Assembly (NCBI RefSeq): GCF_044704955.1
Contig: NC_091990.1
Span: forward strand, 8,866,001-8,930,000
Reading direction: 5' to 3'
Origin: Pristiophorus japonicus
Lineage: Eukaryota
Length of the DNA stretch: 64,000 bases
The notes under the pieces were generated by a model. That model did not search any database. It was not told the DNA's origin and saw only the letters and a program-made list of their open reading frames with translations. Both the position numbers and the translations under genes were made by a program. Shown piece by piece: positions 45,641 to 64,000 of the stretch. Position 1 is the stretch's first letter, and each line of letters opens with the position of its first letter.

Positions 45641-45844
<204 letters not shown>

Positions 45845-51544: not shown

Positions 51545-54500
51545 GCTGTGGCTCAGTGCGCAGCACTCTCCCGAGGCCAAAGGTCGTGGGTTCACAATCT
51601 CACTCCAGAGACTTGAGCACATAATCTAGGCTGACACTCCAGTGCAGTACTGAGGGAGCGCTGCACTGTCGGAGGGGCAGTACTGGGGGAGCACTGCACT
51701 GTCGGAGGGGCAGTACTGAGTGAGCACTGCACTGTCGGAGGGGCAGTACTGGGGGAGTGCTGCACTGTCGGAGGGTCAGTACTGAGGGAGCGCTGCACTG
51801 TCGGAGGGTCAGTACTGAGGGAGTGCTGCACTGTCGGAGGGGCAGTACTGAGGGAGTGCTGCACTGTCGGAGGGGCAGTACTGAGGGAGCGCTGCACTGT
51901 CGGAGGGTCAGTACTGAGGGAGCGCTGCACTGTCGGAGGGTCAGTACTGAGGGAGCGCTGCACTGTCGGAGGGTCAGTACTGAGGGAGCGCTGCACTGTC
52001 GGAGGGTCAGTACTGAGGGAGCGCTGCACTGTCGGAGGGTCAGTACTGAGGGAGTGCTGCACTGTCGGAGGGTCAGTACTGAGGGAGTGCTGCACTGTCG
52101 GAGGGGCAGTACTGAGGGAGCGCTGCACTGTCGGAGGGGCAGTACTGAGGGAGCGCTGCACTGTCGGAGGGTCAGTACTGAGGGAGCGCTGCACTGTCGG
52201 AGGGCCAGTACTGAGGGAGCGCTGCACTGTCGGAGGGTCAGTACTGAGGGAGTGCTGCACTGTCGGAGGGGCAGTACTGAGGGAGTGCTGCACTGTCGGA
52301 GGGGCAGTACTGAGGGAGTGCTGCACTGTCGGAGGGGCAGTACTGAGGGAGTGCTGCACTGTCGGAGGGGCAGTACTGAGGGAGTGCTGCACTGTCGGAG
52401 GGTCAGTACTGAGGGAGCGCTGCACTGTCGGAGGGTCAGTACTGAGGGAGCGCTGCACTGTCGGAGGGTCAGTACTGAGGGAGTGCTGCACTGTCGGAGG
52501 GGCAGTACTGAGGGAGTGCTGCACTGTCGGAGGGGCAGTACTGAGGGAGTGCTGCACTGTCGGAGGGGCAGTACTGAGGGAGCGCTGCACTGTCGGAGGG
52601 TCAGTACTGAGGGAGCGCTGCACTGTCGGAGGGTCAGTACTGAGGGAGTGCTGCACTGTCGGAGGGGCAGTACTGAGGGAGCCCCGCACTGTCGGAGGGG
52701 CAGTACTGAGGGAGCGCTGCACTGTCGGAGGGGCAGTACTGAGGGAGCGCTGCACTGTCGGAGGGTCAGTACTGAGGGAGCGATGCACTGTCGGAGGGGC
52801 AGTACTGAGGGAGTGCTGCACTGTCGGAGGGTCAGTACTGAGGGAGCGATGCACTGTCGGAGGGTCAGTACTGAGGGAGCGATGCACTGTCGGAGGGGCA
52901 GTACTGAGGGAGTGCTGCACTGTCGGAGGGGCAGTACTGAGGGAGCGATGCACTGTCGGAGGGTCAGTACTGAGGGAGCGCTGCACTGTCGGAGGGGTAG
53001 TACTGAGCGAGTGCTGCACTGTCGGAGGGTCAGTACTGAGGGAGCGATGCACTGTCGGAGGGGCAGTACTGAGGGAGTGCTGCACTGTCGGAGGGGCAGT
53101 ACTGGGGGAGCGCTGCACTGTCGGAGGGGCAGTACTGAGTGAGCACTGCACTGTCGGAGGGGCAGTACTGGGGGAGCGCTGCACTGTCGGAGGGGCAGTA
53201 CTGAGGGAGTGCTGCACTGTCGGAGGGGCAGTACTGAGGGAGCGCTGCACTGTCGGAGGGGCAGTACTGAGGGAGTGCTGCACTGTCGGAGGGTCAGTAC
53301 TGAGGGAGCGCTGCACTGTCGGAGGGTCAGTACTGAGGGAGTGCTGCACTGTCGGAGGGGCAGTACTGAGGGAGTGCCGCACTGTTGGAAAGGCAGTACT
53401 GAGGGAGCGCCGCACTGTCGGAGAGGCAGTACTGAGGGAGTGCTGCACTGTCGGAGGGGCAGTACTGAGGGAGTGCTGCACTGTCGGAGGGGCAGTACTG
53501 AGGGAGCGCTGCACTGTCGGAGGGTCAGTACTGAGGGAGCGCTGCACTGTCGGAGGGTCACTACTGAGGGAGCGCTGCACTGTCGGAGGGGCAGTACTGA
53601 GGGAGCGCTGCACTGTCGGAGGGGCAGTACTGAGGGAGTGCTGCACTGTTGGAAAGGCAGTACTGAGGGAGTGCCGCACTGTCGGAGAGGCAGTACTGAG
53701 GGAGTGCTGCACTGTCGGAGGGGCAGTACTGAGGGAGCGCTGCACTGTCGGAGGGGCAGTACTGAGGGAGTGCTGCACTGTTGGAAAGGCAGTACTGAGG
53801 GAGCGCCTCACTGTCGGAGAGGCAGTACTGAGGGAGTGCTGCACTGTCGGAGGGGCAGTACTGAGGGAGTGCTGCACTGTCGGAGGGGCAGTACTGAGGG
53901 AGCGCTGCACTGTCGGAGGGGCAGTACTGAGGGAGTGCTGCACTGTCGGAGGGTCAGTACTGAGGGAGTACTGCACTGTCGGAGGGGCAGTACTGAGGGA
54001 GCACTGCACTGTCGGAGGGGCAGTACTGAGGGAGTGCTGCACTGTCGGAGGGGCAGTACTGAGGGAGCACTGCACTGTCGGAGTAGCAGTACTGAGGGAG
54101 CGCTGCACTGTCGGAGGGTCAGTACTGAGGGAGCGCTGCACTGTCGGAGGGTCAGTACTGAGGGAGCGCTGCACTGTTGGAGGGTCAGTACTGAGGGAGC
54201 GCTGCACTGTCGGAGGGTCAGTACTGAGGGAGCGCTGCACTGTCGTAGGGGCAATATTGAAGGAGTGCCGCACTGTCGGCTGGGCAGTACTGAGGGAGCG
54301 CTGCATTGTCGGAGGGACAGTACTGAAGGAGTACTGCACTGTTGAAAGGTCAGTACTGAGGGAGCGCCGCATTATCGGAGGTACCGACTTTTGGATGAGA
54401 TGTTAGTCCGAGGTCCCGTCTGCTCTCTGAGGTGGACGTAAGAGATCCCACGGCACTATTCAAAGAGCAGGAGAGTTCTTCCCGGTGTCCTGGCCAATAT

Positions 54501-54700
54501 TTGTCCCTGAACCAACATCACTAGAACAGATTATCTGGTCATTATCACACTGCTGTTTGTGGGAGCTTGCTGTGCACAAACTGGCTGCCGTGCTTCCTAC
54601 ATTACAACAGTGACTACACTTTAAAAGTACTTAATTGGCTGTAAAGCGCTTTGAGACGTCCGGTGGTCGTGAAAGGCGCCATAGAAATGCAACTCACTTC
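51545..54700 (+). mobile_element. Full-length Deu-domain SINE with internal tandem expansion
   Basis: A-box TGGCTCAGTG and B-box-like GGTTCACAATC at 51549-51599; body resumes after the array at ~54380; L2-like tail. Confidence 0.88.
51645..54380. repeat. 33-bp minisatellite, ~83 copies
   Basis: Unit CAGTACTGAGGGAG(C/T)GCTGCACTGTCGGAGGG(G/T). Confidence 0.97.
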
Positions 54701-55388
54701 TTTTTTCTGCAGTTTAAGATTTAAAAGGCAGAAAACTGCTCAAATCTTTAAATTAATTTCACAACATAGTCAATGTGATCAAAGAGGACAGATAGCTTTC
54801 AGGGATTTTCTGTAAGTCATAATGCTAATATTTAAAATCAAATTACCGAACACATATCATCTTCAACCACCTTCCACATACCAGTAAGACATGCCCCAGA
54901 AAGCGAAACTTGGTCCACTATTGAAATGATTTGCCACTAAAAGTTCCTTCCTAGGAGAAACTACTTGCAAACAGATCCTTCTCAAAAGGAACTGCACCCG
55001 GCAGTGGAGTGGCTTCTGGTTATGTGCCGAGTGTTCTCATTTTAAAAACTAATAGGCACATTTTCTTATTCACATCATCCTCCATGCAAGGCTGTTCAAA
55101 ACAGACCTGCTGAAAATCAAACCCCCTTTTGCAGAAAGATACAAAGAGGCGTTTGGGTGAAATGTGAGGATGTGTAAAGTAGTATTGCTCGAAGTGGTGC
55201 TACATTCTAATCTAGCAAAGACATGCAGCAACTTCCAACTTTGGACAAACCGAAACGCAGCCACTCGCTGCTCAACAAGATGCTGTGAACTTTCCGAAAG
55301 GTGGCTTTAATGGTCAATGTCAAAGGAAAAACAATTCCCTTCCTTTGTTCCTGGTTTCTAGATAAAATTCAAAAGAAGTTCAAATTAC

Positions 55389-55479
55389 CTTATTGAGCAA
55401 CTCTTTCAGATCCTCCTGCGTTTTCACTATTTTCTTCCAGTGTTCAATCTGTTCATCCTTCACGTGCTTCTCCTGCAGT
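55389..55479 (-). CDS. KDM1A: KDM1A exon 10 (91 bp), Tower domain
   Basis: tgttag|[30 protein letters not shown]|gtaatt. Confidence 0.96.
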
Positions 55480-55816
55480 CTAACAAGGTTTCAAACTATT
55501 GTTTTAACAGTCAATATTTTGGGTTTATTGCCAGTTACCACCTCATTATGTTGTTAATAATTACATTACAACAGTGACTACGCTTCAAAAGTACTTTGGG
55601 ATGTCATGAGGTTGTGAAAGGCGCTATATGAATGCAAGTCTTTCTTCAATATTCATTACTTTAACCTCACTACATCTTCTGCTGTACAATTGTTGAAGAG
55701 AATCAATACTTGGGGAGAAAGGCAGGTTCTAAAGACACAACATTTTTGAACATCTTTTTCTTGGACCAAAAGCAAGTATGTAAGTGTGTGAAGTCGATGT
55801 AAAGACCCAATACTCA

Positions 55817-55984
<168 letters not shown>

Positions 55985-56904
55985 TTACCCAGAAGAGCAG
56001 AGACAGGATCATTTATTTATGCAAGAATGCACAGCAGCCTTGTCAGTAATACCAAGATATCCATTCAGAGCAGAGTTTAGCAGTACCGTGTGTTTATCGG
56101 GTTACACACCCACCAAAAAAAAAGCTACAAATATAATTTATTTTAGGAGAGCAGAGTTTTCAGAACTAACCCATCCCGACAAAGAGTTGTCTCATTTTGA
56201 AGTTCCTCAACGGAAATCCTCACAGGCCTGAGTGTCGGTGATCAAGAAATGCTGAAAGTGGAAAAATGACAGTCCCCAAAGAGTACAGTGCTCTGGAGGT
56301 CCAGCGCAGGCCGCTCAGCAGCTTTTCAATGGGAAAACCACGCCTGCACGGAAGTGTGAATGGGACACGCAGCCCGTCAAAGGGGTCACGCAGCCCAAAC
56401 AATGAGCGGGAACATTGGTCCCGACCGCTTCTAGTGGCCACATTGGTGTCAATGCGATTTCCCTCGATACACGGTGGGCACTGTATGCGATATTTCCATC
56501 GAGGTCATGGGAGTTTCACTATGAATTTGTCAAAGTCGGGGTCAGAAGTCGGAAGGATCCAGGAATCGGTTCAATTCGCTGTCCAGTCCTGTCATTCTAT
56601 TGTTTCCTGGGGAGGAGAGATGAACCGTTGGTTGTTACTTCGGTTTTGACGTCTATGGCAATGGCAAATGATTAGCACCATTTGCCAGATCGAAGCGGCT
56701 GTCCAAGATAGTGGGAACGGAGTACGTGGTGAGGACTGTACCAGATAGGCATACTTGATGCCAAATCACCCGACAGATGAGGAATCCTCAGTCAATCCCA
56801 GTTTATCCATTTGGAAAAAAACACAAACCCCAGCCCACCAAACATCTAGGGCTGTTGCCTCCACTGTCCTACCCGAGAGCATATGTTTGTTGTAAGATTA
56901 AGGA

Positions 56905-58150
56905 GGACTTGCATTTATATAGCGCTTTCCATGACCACCGGGAGTCTCAAAGTGCTTTCCAGCCAATAAAGTACTTTTGGAGTGTGGTCACTGTTGTAAT
57001 GTGGAAAACGTGGCAGCCAATTTGCTCACAGCAAGCTCCCACAAACAGCAATGTGATAATGGCCAGATAATCTATTTTTTGTTATGCTGATTGAGGGATA
57101 ATTATTGGCCAAGACAGCGGGATAACTCCCCTGCTCTTCTTTGAGTCATCATCATCATAGGCAGTCCCTCGGAATCAAGGAAGACTTGTTTCCACTCTTA
57201 GCATGAGTTCTTCGGTGACTGAACAGTCCAATACGAGAACCACAGTCCCTGTCACAGATGGGACAGATAGTCGTTGAGGGAAAGGGTGGACAGGGAGCCT
57301 GGTTTGCCGCACGCTCCTTCCGCTGCCTGCGCTTGATTTCTGCATGCTCTCGGCGATGATACTCGAGGTGCTCAGTGCCCTCCCGGATGCACTTCCTCCA
57401 CTTAGGGCGGTCTATGGCCAGGGGGACTCCCAGGTGTCAGTGGGGATGTCGCACTTTATCAGGGAGGCTTTGAAGGTGTCCTTGTAATGTTTCCTCTGCC
57501 TGCCTTTGGCTCGTTTACCGTGGACGAGTTTCGAATAGAGCGCTTGCTTTGGGAGTCTTGTGTCTGGCATGCGAACGCCTGCCCAGCGGAGCTGACCAAG
57601 TGCGGTCAATGCTTCAATGCTGGGGATGTTCGCCTGGACAAGGACGCTAATATTTGTGCATCTATCCTCCCAGGGGATTGGCAGGATCTTGCGGAGACAT
57701 CGTTGGTGGTATTTCTCCAGCGACTTGAGGTGTCTACTGTACATGGTCCACGTCTCTGAGCCATACAGGAGGGTAATACTACGGACCTGTAGACCATGAG
57801 TTTGGTGACAGTCTTGAGGGACTGGTCTTCAAACACACTTTTCCTCAGGCAGCCGAAGGCTGCACTGGCGCACTGGAGGCAGTGTTGGATCTCGTCGTCA
57901 ATGCCTGTTCTTGTTGATAGGAGGCTCCCGAGATAGAGGAAGTGGTCCACGTTGTCCAGGGCCACGCCGTGGATCTTGATGACTGGGGGGCAGTGCTGTG
58001 CGCCGAGGACAGGCTGGCGGAGGACCTTTGTCTTATTAATGTTTAGCGTAAGGCCCATGCTTTCATATGCCTCGGTAAATACGTCTTTGAAATAGTGCCA
58101 CAGGATCTCTTACATCCACCTGGGCCTTGGTTTAACGTCTCATCTGAAAG
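56905..58150 (-). mobile_element. DeuSINE interrupted by an RTE LINE (57146-58083)
   Basis: SINE sequence continues on both sides; TCTTTGA duplicated at the RTE ends. Confidence 0.88.
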
Positions 58151-58309
58151 ATGTATATTAGGAAACTAAAACAATATAAAAGCAAAAACAAGTCACACTG
58201 GAAGGTGGTCACCACAAGCTAAGATAAACCAGTGGACCTCAACTTGAAGTTCACGTTCTCTGGGCATTCAGATTGAAAGATTAAGAATGTCAGCACGACT
58301 AATTAATTG

Positions 58310-58705
58310 TTTTTATTATTCGTTCACGGGATGTGGGCGTCGATGACAAGGCCAGCATTTATTGTCCATCCCCAATTGCCCTCGAGTGGCTCGCTGGGCC
58401 ATTTCAGAGGGCAGTGAAGAGTCAACCACATTGCTGTGTGTCTGGAGTCACTTATAGACCAGGCCAGGTAAGGATGGCAGATTTCCTTCCCTAAAGGACT
58501 TTGGTGAACCAGATGGGTTCTTACGACAATCTGGTAGTTTCATGGTCACCATTACGGACGCTGGCTTTTTATTGCAGGTTTGTTTAATTAACTGAACTTA
58601 AATTCCACAGCTGCTGTGGAGGGGTGTGAACTCACGTCTCTGGATCATTAGTTCAGGCCTCTGGATTACTGGTCCGGTAACCTTACCACGATGCTAACGC
58701 TTCCT
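58310..58705 (-). mobile_element. tRNA-derived SINE with a LINE-shared tail
   Basis: tRNA-like head near 58620-58700; tail GGGCAATT..CAATAAATGCTGGCCTTG..GACGCCCACATCCC. Confidence 0.7.
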
Positions 58706-59441
58706 TAAGAATTAAGAAATGTTGCCTTATTTAAGTTATTTAAATATTTATCTGATTTGTTTCTTTAAATTAAAAAAAAACAGAATATTGGGATAAAAGG
58801 CCATGAACATAAAATATAAATTTTCATCAATACAGTAGTTGTTACATCCCAATGAAGTGAATTCTGACCAATGAATCACTTTTGTATAATAAGCACTCTT
58901 GTGCCTGCACACTTCCTATGTCCACACGTGATAGTAACAGCCTTTCTAAACCTGTCAAGCTGCAATGGCATCCTCCCAAGGGTTGTGGCAGCAGTTCGTC
59001 ATTTGCGCATCTCCCAGCTATACTGTCGACAAACACCTGTGCTCCAGCCCATTCTACTTCGGACTCCCAAATTGCCATACGTTTTGCTATTTAAGTAAAT
59101 AATATTAAAGCAAAGTAATAAATAAAAATAAGGACAGAATGCATGACTTTAAAATTGGGACTGAATTACATCAGTGGCCCTAATCAAATTATACCTTGCT
59201 TCACTCGAAGGCTACACCTCCGTGGGAGATTGACCAGTATTAATTATGCAGCTATAACTATCAGATGAGGTTGATGCAGCTCTGAGGGTTGTTATACTGT
59301 AAACCACATCCACACTTTGTAATTATCCAAAATCCTAACACCTTCAAATAAGTGGACAGTGTTTTCTCTCGCTGCAATTACTTCCTGCTTGCTGCAAGAT
59401 TTCATAACATATGCCAGTTAGTAAAAAGTAAAAATACATAC

Positions 59442-59459
59442 GTTTGTGCATCTTTCTCC
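59442..59459 (-). CDS. KDM1A: Candidate KDM1A alternative microexon 8a-like (18 nt, GERCTN)
   Basis: aag|GGAGAAAGATGCACAAAC|gtatgt; phase 0/0, in frame between GQA and VPK; long upstream pyrimidine tract and branch-like CTAAT with no intervening AG. Confidence 0.75.
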
Positions 59460-59574
59460 CTTCATTAGGATCCAATTCCAAACATCAGGAATGACAGAAA
59501 AAAAGGGGAGAAAAAAAAGAGTCATTAGTGCCTTGACCAGTGACCACATTTTTGAAATGTTCAACGTTTAAACA

Positions 59575-59990
59575 AACAAACAAACTTGCATTTCTATAAT
59601 GCCTTGTAGCGTCTCTCAGCTCAAAACACTTCCTGTACAATGAATCACTCAGAAGTGTAACCACTGCTGTTATGTAGGTAGCAAAACAGTAATCAAAATG
59701 AATGAGCAGCTAATCTATTTTTGGTTGTCTTGACTGAGGGACAAATGATCAGCAGCAGCACACTGGGAGAACTCCCTGCTCTTCCTCCAATCATGCTGAG
59801 GTATTACCACTTCAGTTCTTCAAATTTTAGGTCTCATCTGAAAGCTGGCATCTCCAACAAAGCAGCACTCCCTCAGCACTGCATAGAAGTCTCAGCTCTA
59901 GATTACGTGCTCCGGTTCGGGAGCTTGGCTTCAAACCACAACCTTCTGATTCAGAGGCCAGAATGCTATCAAATGAGCCAAGCTCAGAGT
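59575..59990 (-). mobile_element. Degraded DeuSINE
   Basis: Diverged match to the 51545-54700 head and tail. Confidence 0.7.
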
Positions 59991-60697
59991 TCATTTAGAA
60001 TGCAAACAGTTCTCATACTGTCAATGAGCACGTGCAATGTACTGCATGCCAGGAGAAAAAGTTTAGCACAAGATTAACATTTTTTTTTTACTTTGCACTC
60101 AGTACTATCAAGTTCCCCAAGTCAGGTGTTACATGACTCTGAAGCAATTCTGAGCTTTCCTATGCACACTTCAACTGCACTAGCACTATCAACGGAGCAC
60201 TAGCTATACCATCATCTTCACTCACCAAAAGTCTCAATCCCTGTGGCTCATCTGAGCAAATATTCTGGCAATGAGTCAATTAGGAATGTTGTATACTAAA
60301 CAGAGCAGGTATAGGACTCAGTGAATGCTACTGCAATTCCAATAGTTGTTAGTCTTTGCCCAACTCTCTGTCCTGTGTCCTGAACATAAAGGAAGACTTT
60401 TTTTTGCACGACTATCTCGAAGCCTGGATTACTCACTGAAATTCAGAGTAAGCTGAACGCAACATTTCCAGAAATAGTTATTAAGAACGTAATGACAACT
60501 AGCCAGCAAACGTATAATTACTTAATGAAAAAAAAATGTTACAAAGCTTTTTATAAAATGCATGCTAATGACATATACTTGACATTAGGTTTTCTATCCC
60601 GACAACCTCAATATGGCTTCTGGATACAGAGTAAACCGTGTTTAACTATTACAAGCCTGTTGTATTTGTAATCATAACCCATTATTTTGAGACTTAC

Positions 60698-60792
60698 AGC
60701 CTGCCCATTTGCCTCATACAGCGGACACTTTTGCTTTATTTTAGCCAGTTCCATGTTTACTTGCTTGCTGACCACTGCCATTGGGTTTCCAC
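60698..60792 (-). CDS. KDM1A: KDM1A exon 8 (95 bp)
   Basis: ctgcag|[31 protein letters not shown]|gtaagt; ends in phase 0. Confidence 0.97.
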
Positions 60793-60949
60793 CTGCAGAA
60801 CAAAAGAACAAAGCCAACAAATTTTGTATCAATCATTTTTTAATAAGGTGGGCGAACAAGAGCGAGAGAAGAGCAGAATAAAGAAGAAGAAAACTGCATG
60901 TGATTGTCCTTGGACAGACCCCATTAGAGTAATGCATTCAGCTTCGGGC

Positions 60950-61430
60950 AGCATACCTCAGGATTGAGAAACTGGCCATGGACGGCTTACAGTGCAGGTT
61001 CACCATAGCAACAGCGAGGCTCTGGGTACACTGAGGGCAGGTCGCATAAACTTGGCTTTTATTCCTTTAAGTTTAGAATGTTGAAGGGTGATCTAATCAA
61101 GATATTTGAAATGATAAAGATGATTCGATATACAGAGCAACTATTTCCTGTGGTGGGGGAATCCGGAATAGGGGACGTAATAGAATTACAGCTATGACAT
61201 TTAGAAATGAAATCAGGAAACATTTTCTCCAGAAAATGTCATGGAAATCTGGAACTCTCTCTCCAAAAGACTGTGGATGCTGAGTCAGTTGAAATTTTCA
61301 AGATTGATCTAGATTTTTGTTAAGTAAAGGTATCAAGGATACGGAGCAAAGACAGGTAAAAGGCAGTTGATGTACAGATCAGCCATGATCGAAAAGGATG
61401 ATGGAACAGGCTCGAGGGGCTGAATGTTCC
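60950..61430 (+). mobile_element. Older CR1 3' fragment
   Basis: Decayed CR1 C-terminus and 3' UTR. Confidence 0.75.
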
Positions 61431-61500
61431 CATTTAATTTGTAAAGCCACATATTTAGTCTCCTCCCAAATCATATCCCAAAAATGAGAAACAAAAATCA

Positions 61501-61620
<120 letters not shown>

Positions 61621-61969
61621 TTAAAAGATTATGAAGGGGCTAAGTGTGTTTATATCTATATATAACATTGTTGAGTGTAGCTCATATTGGGATTTGGGTT
61701 CGTCGCGACAGTCACACTTGCACATTTCCACCACCAGCTCCTGACCCCTATACCCACACTTGCAGCATCATTAATACACGGAGGGAAAGTAGCTTTGCCC
61801 GGACTTTCCGTGGTCAAAATCACAGGAAATCCACTGGTACATTAAAAAAAATAATTTGATGAAAATCAAAAAAAATCCTTCCGCAATGACCAACACGTTC
61901 ACAAGTTTAAACTTAATTCTGACAGAGGAAGGCAACTTGACCACCATAACCCTTCACTCCCTTATCGTT

Positions 61970-62296
61970 CAGGGGCCCAGAAGAGGCGAGGGCCCAGGGG
62001 CAGCACGGGCCCAGCCCACACTGCGATATGTGTGCACACTAGGTCCGTGCAGCAGAGCTGGTCTCCAGTCGGCTTGGTTAACCCTTGCTACTGGGCCAAG
62101 ACCTAGCTCTGTCGAGCCCGTGTGGTGGCTGGTGTGCAACAGTCACCACACGTTAAAAAAATCCACGCACAGGCATCTTCCACCCTGCAGGATGTAGTTC
62201 GGGATCTGGAATTTTAGGTCCTTCATTGAAACACCTGTGAATTTTTTGACGTGGAAGCAAGTCATTCTCGATTCGAGGGACTGCCTATGATGATGA
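61970..62296 (+). mobile_element. Bipartite non-autonomous RTE element
   Basis: Matches the 29575 and 30230 copies; (ATG)n tail. Confidence 0.82.
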
Positions 62297-63199
62297 GCTT
62301 GCAATGTCTGCTTTATCCAATAACGGCCAATAAGCAATCATATGGGGAAATAAATCTGTATCTGAGGACATGTTCATTTTTAAAACGTGACCATTAATGG
62401 ATAATGGTATTACTGTCAGATCATCAACTCAACTTATACCAACCCAGCAAGCCAATTCTCTCAGGAGATGGTGACAACTGTTCAGCTCTCTCAATGATTG
62501 AAGTATTGATCAAGGTTCAGATGTACCAGGACATCTGAACATGACTGACAGTGGCACATCATATTCTCAAGTAGGGAAAGTTCCACATTTAAAGATTCAG
62601 TTTTACACATTCCCACAGATTATTGTACTAATGGATGTGATAAAACAAGAGCTTATTGTATTAAACATTTTTAAAATTTCTGGTGAACTTGGGCTTTCTA
62701 TATTTTAGGTAGATTAATTCCAGTAGCTCGCTAAGTATACCAAGTATTTCACTTGTTTTATATACAAGTCTGCAGGTAAAACAAAAGTGCTGTGTCCTCC
62801 AATGGCCAGCATTCACACCGGCAGCACACCGAGCGAGCCAGTACTTGCTCTTCCCTCCACCGGTGAAGCTACCAACCACAGTAAAGTCTTTCTTCCATTG
62901 GATTGTCAGGAAATGGGAAAACTTGATTCAAAGAAATAGTTGTCCACTCTCCCCTACAAATAGCTATTTTCAAGAATGCCATCGTGCTCAAGTGCTCCTG
63001 AATGACTATTCTTAGTAAAAGTATGAGGAAACAATTTTTACACGTCTGTGCACTAAACTTCAACTTTGGGGTAAAAAGCTAGGTCGATTATGATTTTCAT
63101 TTTGTTAAATAAAGTGTCTGTTATTTCACCTGGCTCTTTTGCTGTATTATAGAAAGGGAAATTTAGACATCACAAAGTTCTCTTGCAAGGTTTTCTTCA

Positions 63200-63352
<153 letters not shown>

Positions 63353-63484
63353 TTACTGGCCAAAGGAAACACAGATCAACAATATAGTCCAAGATCATCC
63401 AAACTACTAGAGCGTCCTAACTTTATATAGATTTTCTAGTTCATTTGGTGTATCTTTTGGTACTATCTTCCCTCCCTCCACCCT

Positions 63485-64000
63485 GCCATGAACTTTTCTC
63501 TAGCCGCCGATTCCATCCCCTTCCCTGGCCATTGTCTCAGCCTGAACCAGACGGTTTGCAACCTTGGCGTCCTATTTGATCCTGAGCTGAGCTTCTGACC
63601 CTATATCCTCTCCATCACCAAGACTGCCTACTTCCACCTCCGACCCTGCCTCAACCAACCTACTGCTGAAACCCTCATCTGTGCTTTGTTGTCTACTATG
63701 CCAATGCTTCCCCAGCTGTCTTCCCATCTTCCACTCTCCTTAAACTTGAGCTCACCCAAAACTCTGCTGCCTGTATTCTAACTCACATCGAGTCCCGCTC
63801 ACCCATCACCCCTCTGCTCACTGACCTACATTTCTGCCGGTCCACCAACACTTTAAATTTAAAATTCTCATCCTCGTGCTCAAATCCCTCCATGGCCTCG
63901 CCCCTATTCCTGTAACCTCTTCCAGCTCTACAACCCTTCGAGAAGTCGGAGTTCTTCCAATGCTGGCCTCTTGTGCCCCCCACACTTCCTTCTGACCATC
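63485..64000 (+). mobile_element. L2 LINE 3' region (runs off window)
   Basis: LNQTVCNLGVLFDPELSF-like coding remnant. Confidence 0.8.

What the first reader, a model, noticed from the sequence alone, without database searches (positions are those of the whole stretch)
59442..59459. LSD1 exon 8a-like microexon (GERCTN) in a probable cartilaginous fish
Seen: 18 nt GGA GAA AGA TGC ACA AAC between AAG and GTATGT in intron 8; both flanking junctions are phase 0, giving ..ANGQA-GERCTN-VPKEK... Knowledge: mammals insert the neuron-specific 12-nt exon 8a (DTVK, phosphorylatable Thr) at this same junction, altering LSD1 activity. From memory, zebrafish has a broadly expressed 8a-like exon encoding GERCTS, and such exons have been read as patchy or convergent. 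Inference: a near-identical peptide in a shark would date the six-residue microexon to the jawed-vertebrate ancestor, with later loss or replacement in tetrapods. It is too short to appear in the ORF track.
Basis: partly seen in the sequence, partly recalled or inferred. Interest (0 to 1): 0.85.

Follow-up and report, generated by a model that had tools for sequence, protein, structure and literature searches.

The report
Known fish LSD1 microexon in shark
This is a real, spliced 18-base mini-exon that adds six amino acids (GERCTN) to the histone demethylase LSD1 of a shark, but the same exon has already been published for whale shark, elephant shark, lamprey and hagfish, so the finding is ordinary.

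Summary
In detail: 59459-59442 (minus strand) is an 18-nt, frame-keeping exon in intron 8 of KDM1A/LSD1, reading GERCTN between AAG and GTATGT. Spliced contigs of two public runs join its donor to exon 9, and 24 of 24 named elasmobranch LSD1 proteins covering the junction carry GERCTN. It is not new. It likely works as a near-constitutive exon (zebrafish skips it in 2-6% of clones) that lengthens a surface loop near LSD1's DNA-contacting face; it lacks the UGC and palindrome elements of the neuron-specific mammalian exon 8a. One question stays open: the amniote DTVK exon resembles this exon no more than shuffled sequence does, so the two may be independent exons at one junction, not one diverged exon as published. 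Already known; interest low.

The parts
59442..59459 (-). 18-nt KDM1A/LSD1 exon 8a-like microexon, phase 0/0, encodes GERCTN
   Evidence: spliced to exon 9 in X1 and X2; identical to published whale shark and elephant shark exon
59460..59462 (-). 3' splice site AAG of the microexon (the whale shark model ends this stretch in Gln, so probably CAG there)
   Evidence: use inferred from contig ends at 59459
59436..59441 (-). 5' splice site GTATGT of the microexon
   Evidence: joint to 55960 with CT..AC ends
59496..59521 (-). 26-nt pure pyrimidine run set 37-62 nt upstream of the exon, inside a 70-nt AG-free zone
59524..59530 (-). candidate branch point CACTAAT at about -70; likely conserved in whale shark
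   Evidence: the whale shark model P0013 reads through this intron as GQGTNN where one frame of the window reads GQGTND; function inferred
59417..59423 (-). TACTAAC just downstream of the donor; possible QKI/SF1-type element
   Evidence: 4 copies on the whole minus strand, 1 in intron 8; motif ACUAAC per PMC10835012; function untested
60698..60792 (-). KDM1A exon 8 (95 nt), ends ...ANGQA in phase 0
59460..60697 (-). intron between exon 8 and the microexon (1238 nt)
   Evidence: sequence; removal inferred
55961..59441 (-). intron between the microexon and exon 9 (3481 nt)
   Evidence: joint skipping 3481 bases in X1 and X2
55818..55960 (-). KDM1A exon 9 (143 nt), starts VPKEK

Best explanation
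This is the shark copy of the published fish and cyclostome LSD1 exon 8a-like microexon: it is spliced to exon 9, is likely included in nearly all KDM1A transcripts, and adds GERCTN after the residue matching human Ala369. Inclusion likely rests on core signals (a conserved branch-point-like CACTAAT at -70, a 26-nt pyrimidine run in a 70-nt AG-free zone, a GTATGT donor, perhaps helped by a downstream ACUAAC), not on the neuronal SRRM4 switch, whose UGC is missing near the acceptor. The six residues likely lengthen a surface loop of the amine oxidase domain next to LSD1's DNA-contacting face, leaving H3K4 demethylation intact and tuning nucleosome or partner binding. Shown: sequence, splice sites, downstream splice joint, conservation. 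Inferred: upstream joint, near-constitutive inclusion, splicing mechanism, protein effect.
For: Joint to exon 9 at depth 427 (X1) and 326 (X2); in X2 four joints on both sides of the exon share depth 326 and one contig each, matching one 1518-nt contig. X1 record 6 lies on 58641-59459 with 819 of 829 letters; 10 left-over letters are what a 30-letter overlap gives if exon 8 is already joined (inference). No exon 8-to-9 skip joint among the 15 shown. GERCTN in 24 of 24 named elasmobranch proteins of 12 species (23 joined to exon 8, 1 whale shark read-through model), none without; 14 of 15 lamprey proteins. Zebrafish: skipped in 2-6% of 48 clones from each of 4 sources, and LSD1+8al demethylates H3K4 on bulk histones (PMC7244555). 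In the 8 published fish and cyclostome exons 4 of 6 third-codon positions vary silently and only 2 of 12 first or second positions vary (read by eye), which points to selection on the peptide. Nearest UGC is 131 nt upstream and UGCUGC about 300 nt upstream; no perfect complement over 9 nt to the exon region in intron 8. DTVK at the same junction lies near the DNA-recognition surface and lowers nucleosome binding (PMC11864812 passages).
Against: Only two runs from one study, tissue unknown, held as contigs that drop rare variants and give no inclusion rate; 251 joints were not shown. Database proteins are mostly gene models: 2 of 2 elephant shark UniRef models, 1 of 2 coelacanth models and many teleost UniRef models lack the insert, which may be missed annotation or real skipping. 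The elasmobranch set came from clusters whose representatives mostly carry the insert, and P0011 probably comes from this species or a very near one, so it is not independent. The acceptor is AAG with 11 pyrimidines in the 21 nt nearest to it, weak for a constitutive exon. No test of the protein effect was possible.
Confidence: 0.8

Rival explanations
1. The exon is tissue-regulated in sharks, for example neuron-enriched like mammalian exon 8a, and the two runs happen to come from tissues that include it.
For: Tissue of X1 and X2 is unknown. The layout (pyrimidine run set back from a weak AAG acceptor) recalls neural microexons (recalled, not tested). Insert-free models exist for elephant shark, coelacanth and one lamprey.
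Against: No UGC within 130 nt of the acceptor and no palindrome; 0 of 24 elasmobranch proteins skip it; the zebrafish exon is included in all organs tested (PMC7244555).
Confidence: 0.15
2. On history: the GERCTN exon and the amniote DTVK exon are one ancestral exon that diverged and was lost several times (the published reading).
For: Same intron, same phase, both frame-keeping; stated in PMC10721905 section 9. Short exons can diverge past recognition.
Against: The 12-nt amniote exon aligns to the 18-nt exon no better than its shuffles (61% of 20000 reach the global score; 43% of 5000 reach 6 of 12 codon-wise identities). Each form is nearly frozen in its own group, with no intermediate seen: coelacanth keeps GERCNN and frog inserts (FQ, LHFTSQ, a 39-residue one) all end in Gln like upstream acceptors. 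The test has little power at 12 nt.
Confidence: 0.45
3. The 18-mer is a chance AG..GT stretch or a pseudo-exon with no product.
For: 166 stop-free AG..GT candidates exist in this intron; the acceptor is AAG.
Against: Spliced joint in two runs; 18 of 18 identity with published shark and chimaera exons; flank conserved in whale shark (23 of 43 residues, E 6e-12 for the single comparison, exon included).
Confidence: 0.01

Closest known systems
Chondrichthyan LSD1 E8a-like exon (whale shark, elephant shark; PMC10721905 Supplementary Data 5; PMC7244555 Discussion)
   Same: Same gene, intron, length, peptide and all 18 bases; no neuronal splicing regulatory sequences.
   Different: Only the species, the intron length (4737 nt here against 8819 and 2835) and probably an AAG in place of a CAG acceptor. 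The two papers give genomic sequence for sharks; one search adds a spliced joint.
Zebrafish LSD1+8al exon (GERCTS; PMC7244555), with gar and medaka
   Same: 18 nt, same junction, 5 of 6 residues, 15 of 18 bases.
   Different: Asn for Ser at position 6; tissue pattern measured in zebrafish (ubiquitous, 2-6% skipping), not here.
Cyclostome (GERCTN) and coelacanth (GERCNN) E8a-like exons
   Same: Same length and junction; lamprey and hagfish peptide identical.
   Different: Silent base changes; Thr to Asn in coelacanth, which removes the one residue that could mimic the phosphorylated Thr of DTVK.
Amniote neuroLSD1 exon E8a (DTVK, 12 nt; SRRM4/NOVA1-dependent)
   Same: Same intron and phase, insert after the residue matching Ala369, same surface region of the amine oxidase domain.
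   Different: 12 against 18 nt; no sequence likeness above shuffles; neuron-specific against likely near-constitutive; UGCUGC near the acceptor and downstream palindrome absent here.

Membership tests
Fish/cyclostome LSD1 E8a-like microexon | Lies between KDM1A exons 8 and 9 with AG and GT flanks | tested here: met
Fish/cyclostome LSD1 E8a-like microexon | 18 nt encoding GERC[TN][NS] | tested here: met
   18 of 18 identity to whale shark and elephant shark rows
Fish/cyclostome LSD1 E8a-like microexon | Included in mRNA | tested here: met
   donor-to-exon 9 joint in X1 and X2; upstream joint inferred
Fish/cyclostome LSD1 E8a-like microexon | Broad, near-constitutive inclusion as in zebrafish | tested here: inconclusive
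   no skip joint shown and 0 of 24 elasmobranch proteins skip it, but tissues unknown and contigs give no rate
Amniote neuroLSD1 exon E8a | 12 nt encoding DTVK or DTVE | tested here: not met
   exon is 18 nt GERCTN; no minus-strand match with up to 2 mismatches in intron 8; likeness at shuffle level
Amniote neuroLSD1 exon E8a | Insertion at the exon 8/9 junction after Ala369 | tested here: met
   PMC7244555
Amniote neuroLSD1 exon E8a | UGCUGC upstream of the acceptor and a downstream palindrome complementary to the exon | tested here: not met
   UGCUGC only about 300 nt upstream; longest perfect complement 9 nt; features per PMC10721905 and PMC7794663. Imperfect pairing not tested
Amniote neuroLSD1 exon E8a | Neuron-restricted inclusion | not testable with these tools
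   run tissues not on record
Amniote neuroLSD1 exon E8a | Phosphorylatable Thr that loosens CoREST/HDAC binding | not testable with these tools
   a Thr is present but is replaced by Asn in coelacanth
SRRM3/SRRM4-dependent neural microexons | Very short and frame-keeping | tested here: met
   18 nt, phase 0/0
SRRM3/SRRM4-dependent neural microexons | UGC close to the 3' splice site | tested here: not met
   nearest UGC at -131; motif per PMC11864812

The most novel reading that the evidence does not exclude
The fish GERCTN exon and the mammalian neuronal DTVK exon are not homologous. The vertebrate ancestor's main LSD1 carried GERCTN; tetrapods lost it, so their 'canonical' insert-free LSD1 is a reversion to the invertebrate state; amniotes then made a new, neuron-specific exon in the same intron, and frogs lengthen the same loop by upstream acceptors. 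The loop would be a repeated target for tuning LSD1 on nucleosomes.
Probability: 0.5. Interest if true: 0.45.

Novelty: already known. Interest (0 to 1): 0.14.

Why it matters
As found, little: one more shark with a published exon, plus a spliced joint for a group where the two papers cite genomic sequence. It would matter more if the fish and amniote exons proved independent: neuroLSD1 would then be an amniote invention at a junction used before for a housekeeping insert, and fish would be no model for neuroLSD1. The function of the invariant GERC residues, kept from lamprey to teleosts, is still unexplained in the papers I read.

Tried and rejected
The look-up of sequencing runs listed no holder on record as RNA; the two runs it gave proved to hold spliced contigs. 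No raw reads, so no inclusion rate or tissue. Two AlphaFold2 models were too poor to use (mean pLDDT 37.4 and 42.6; both list the insert in segments under 50), so no fold search was run. A second candidate exon, 6 nt QN at 59086-59081 (TAG/GTATGG, 58-nt AG-free), has no joint among those shown and appears in none of 196 proteins counted: not supported. A DTVK-like remnant: 10 matches in the window against 18 expected, none on the minus strand of intron 8. A TIA1-type U-rich enhancer after the donor: 12 T of 24 against 8-13 at the six correctly placed other donors, not special. Amphioxus: PMC7244555's text names it but its Fig. 1B legend lists hagfish; no named amphioxus or tunicate protein was among the best 120 of 170 hits and 0 of 148 new distant representatives contain GERC; weak, so not confirmed. 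The search of earlier findings gave nothing. One search found 0 papers.

Full report
Observation. On the minus strand 59459..59442 is 18 nt and translates GERCTN, with AAG before and GTATGT after. Exon 8 spans 60792..60698 and ends in phase 0; exon 9 spans 55960..55818. The last 31 codons of exon 8 equal human LSD1 339-369. tblastn of shark LSD1 proteins finds 14 exon matches in the window, all on the minus strand, and the upstream exons in neighbouring stretches of G000, which fits the human numbering once two optional exons after exon 2 are set aside. Exon 9 is 100% identical to 8 chondrichthyan proteins and at most 98% to the other 112 of the 120 listed; of 11 chondrichthyan models tested exon by exon, only the sawshark model P0011 holds the last exon exactly (3 of 15 test stretches matched no model, probably because I set their ends or frame wrongly). 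The organism is a shark, and P0011, which already includes GERCTN, is probably this species or a near one and is not independent evidence. The assembly has 5.92 Gb and holds the exon with its splice sites once.

Is it spliced? The look-up of sequencing runs gave two runs of one study with no library record. Laid on 54600-64000, both show GT-AG joints at the known KDM1A introns and a joint that skips 3481 bases from the microexon donor to exon 9, depth 427 in X1 and 326 in X2. In X2 the joints of exons 6/7, 7/8, microexon/9 and 9/10 all have depth 326 and one contig, matching a 1518-nt contig, so exon 8 and the microexon probably lie on one path. In X1 an intron-holding contig ends at 59459 with 10 letters left over, the number expected if exon 8 is already joined. 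The upstream joint itself and an exon 8-to-9 skip joint are both absent from the 15 rows shown; 251 rows were hidden, contigs drop rare forms and the tissues are unknown.

Conservation. Of 196 proteins fetched by then, the junction read: no insert 116, GERCTN 27, GERCTS 15, DTVK 4, GERCNN 1, other 6, unreadable 27 (one unreadable is the whale shark read-through model, which has GERCTN). All 24 named elasmobranch proteins (12 species) have GERCTN and none skips it; both elephant shark UniRef models lack it. 14 of 15 lamprey proteins have it. The whale shark model P0013 reads through the upstream intron, and that translation aligns with the window's flank (23 of 43 residues, exon included); its GQGTNN matches GQGTND in another frame of the window at the CACTAAT 70 nt upstream, so the branch-point region is likely conserved. 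The insert-free state is thus likely ancestral outside vertebrates.

What is in print. PMC7244555 (Tamaoki 2020; I read parts 1-3 of 4 of the text, not the figures; its supplement gave 808 characters and no hit) describes zebrafish GERCTS at the site of mammalian DTVK, included in all stages and organs tested and skipped in 2-6% of clones, active on H3K4, and states that GERCTN was found in the elephant shark genome. PMC10721905 (Olivares-Costa 2023; abstract, sections 9 and 15, passages, Supplementary Data 5) lists the exon for gar, zebrafish, medaka, whale shark, elephant shark, coelacanth, lamprey and hagfish, finds DTVK in mammals, turtles and some birds and nothing in 4 amphibians, crocodilians or lepidosaurs, finds the neuronal regulatory sequences only in mammals and turtles, and concludes that the exon was in the vertebrate ancestor, was lost several times and diverged. 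The window's exon equals the whale shark and elephant shark rows at all 18 bases. PMC11864812 (abstract and passages) places DTVK near LSD1's DNA-recognition surface and shows weaker nucleosome binding. PMC7794663 (passages) describes the palindrome. PMC10835012 (passages) gives the QKI motif. PMC12626424 (one passage) mentions Kdm1a only for mouse.

How it likely works. The acceptor is a weak AAG, but a 26-nt pyrimidine run and a branch-point-like CACTAAT lie 37-70 nt upstream in a 70-nt AG-free zone, and a TACTAAC follows the donor. The nearest UGC is at -131, UGCUGC at about -300, and no perfect complement over 9 nt to the exon region exists in the intron, so the mammalian neuronal switch is not there. 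I infer near-constitutive inclusion driven by core signals, as in zebrafish. In the eight published fish and cyclostome exons most changes are silent (4 of 6 third positions vary, 2 of 12 first or second positions; by eye), so the peptide is under selection; identity at all 18 bases between sharks and chimaera suggests added constraint on the RNA. By position the insert lengthens the loop that takes DTVK in mammals; GERCTN is net neutral, where DTVK with its phosphorylated Thr is proposed to repel DNA, so a milder effect on nucleosome or partner binding is likely. This step is untested: both structure predictions were unusable.

What remains open. The amniote 12-mer aligns to the shark 18-mer no better than its shuffles (61% of 20000 and 43% of 5000 reach the observed scores), and no DTVK-like stretch lies in this intron. 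Frog inserts at the junction (FQ in 3 of 3 Ascaphus models, LHFTSQ in 2 of 4 Engystomops, 39 residues in 2 of 2 Rhinoderma) all end in Gln, and the last six bases of this shark's intron read FQ, so they look like upstream acceptors, not exons. This favours loss in early tetrapods and a new exon in amniotes over divergence of one exon, but 12 nt give little power and no intron alignment across species could be made. Nine searches found no paper that tests this; the library lacks most subscription papers.

Verdict. Interest 0.14.

Noticed in passing
L017:1653-1691 (minus strand; G000:C14, upstream of the window): A 39-nt exon between exons 2 and 3 encodes VHWSNINLAGSVA, at the place of mammalian exon 2a, with the same GTATGTATTTTT donor as the microexon. 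A VHWSNINL-type peptide is in 22 of 24 elasmobranch proteins (2 unreadable); lamprey P0131 has an unrelated 12-residue insert there. PMC7244555 says the zebrafish 2a-like insert comes from exon 2 itself.
   Followed up: partly
L017:2705-2830 (minus strand): A further 42-codon optional exon after exon 2, present in the sawshark and Heptranchias models P0011 and P0012.
   Followed up: no
window 55961-55966 (minus strand): The last six intron bases before exon 9 read FQ, the insert published for axolotl and seen here in Ascaphus models; amphibian 'FQ' may be a tandem acceptor, not a microexon.
   Followed up: partly
window 59081-59086 (minus strand): A second exon-like 6-mer (QN) with TAG acceptor, GTATGG donor and 58-nt AG-free zone, 355 nt downstream of the microexon; no read or protein support seen.
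   Followed up: partly
window 45695-45700 (minus strand): The donor after the exon ending at 45701 is GCAAGC, a probable GC-AG intron.
   Followed up: no
window 51644-54381: 83 copies of a 33-nt tandem repeat (93% matches) inside intron 10; it makes the long open frames at 51592-54406.
   Followed up: no
window 57100-58060: A decayed high-copy repeat, by look a LINE fragment (recalled, not tested), and other high-copy repeats inside intron 8, downstream of the microexon.
   Followed up: no
P0013 (whale shark LSD1 model): This public model replaces exons 7 and 8 with a read-through of intron sequence in front of GERCTN, probably an annotation or assembly error.
   Followed up: partly
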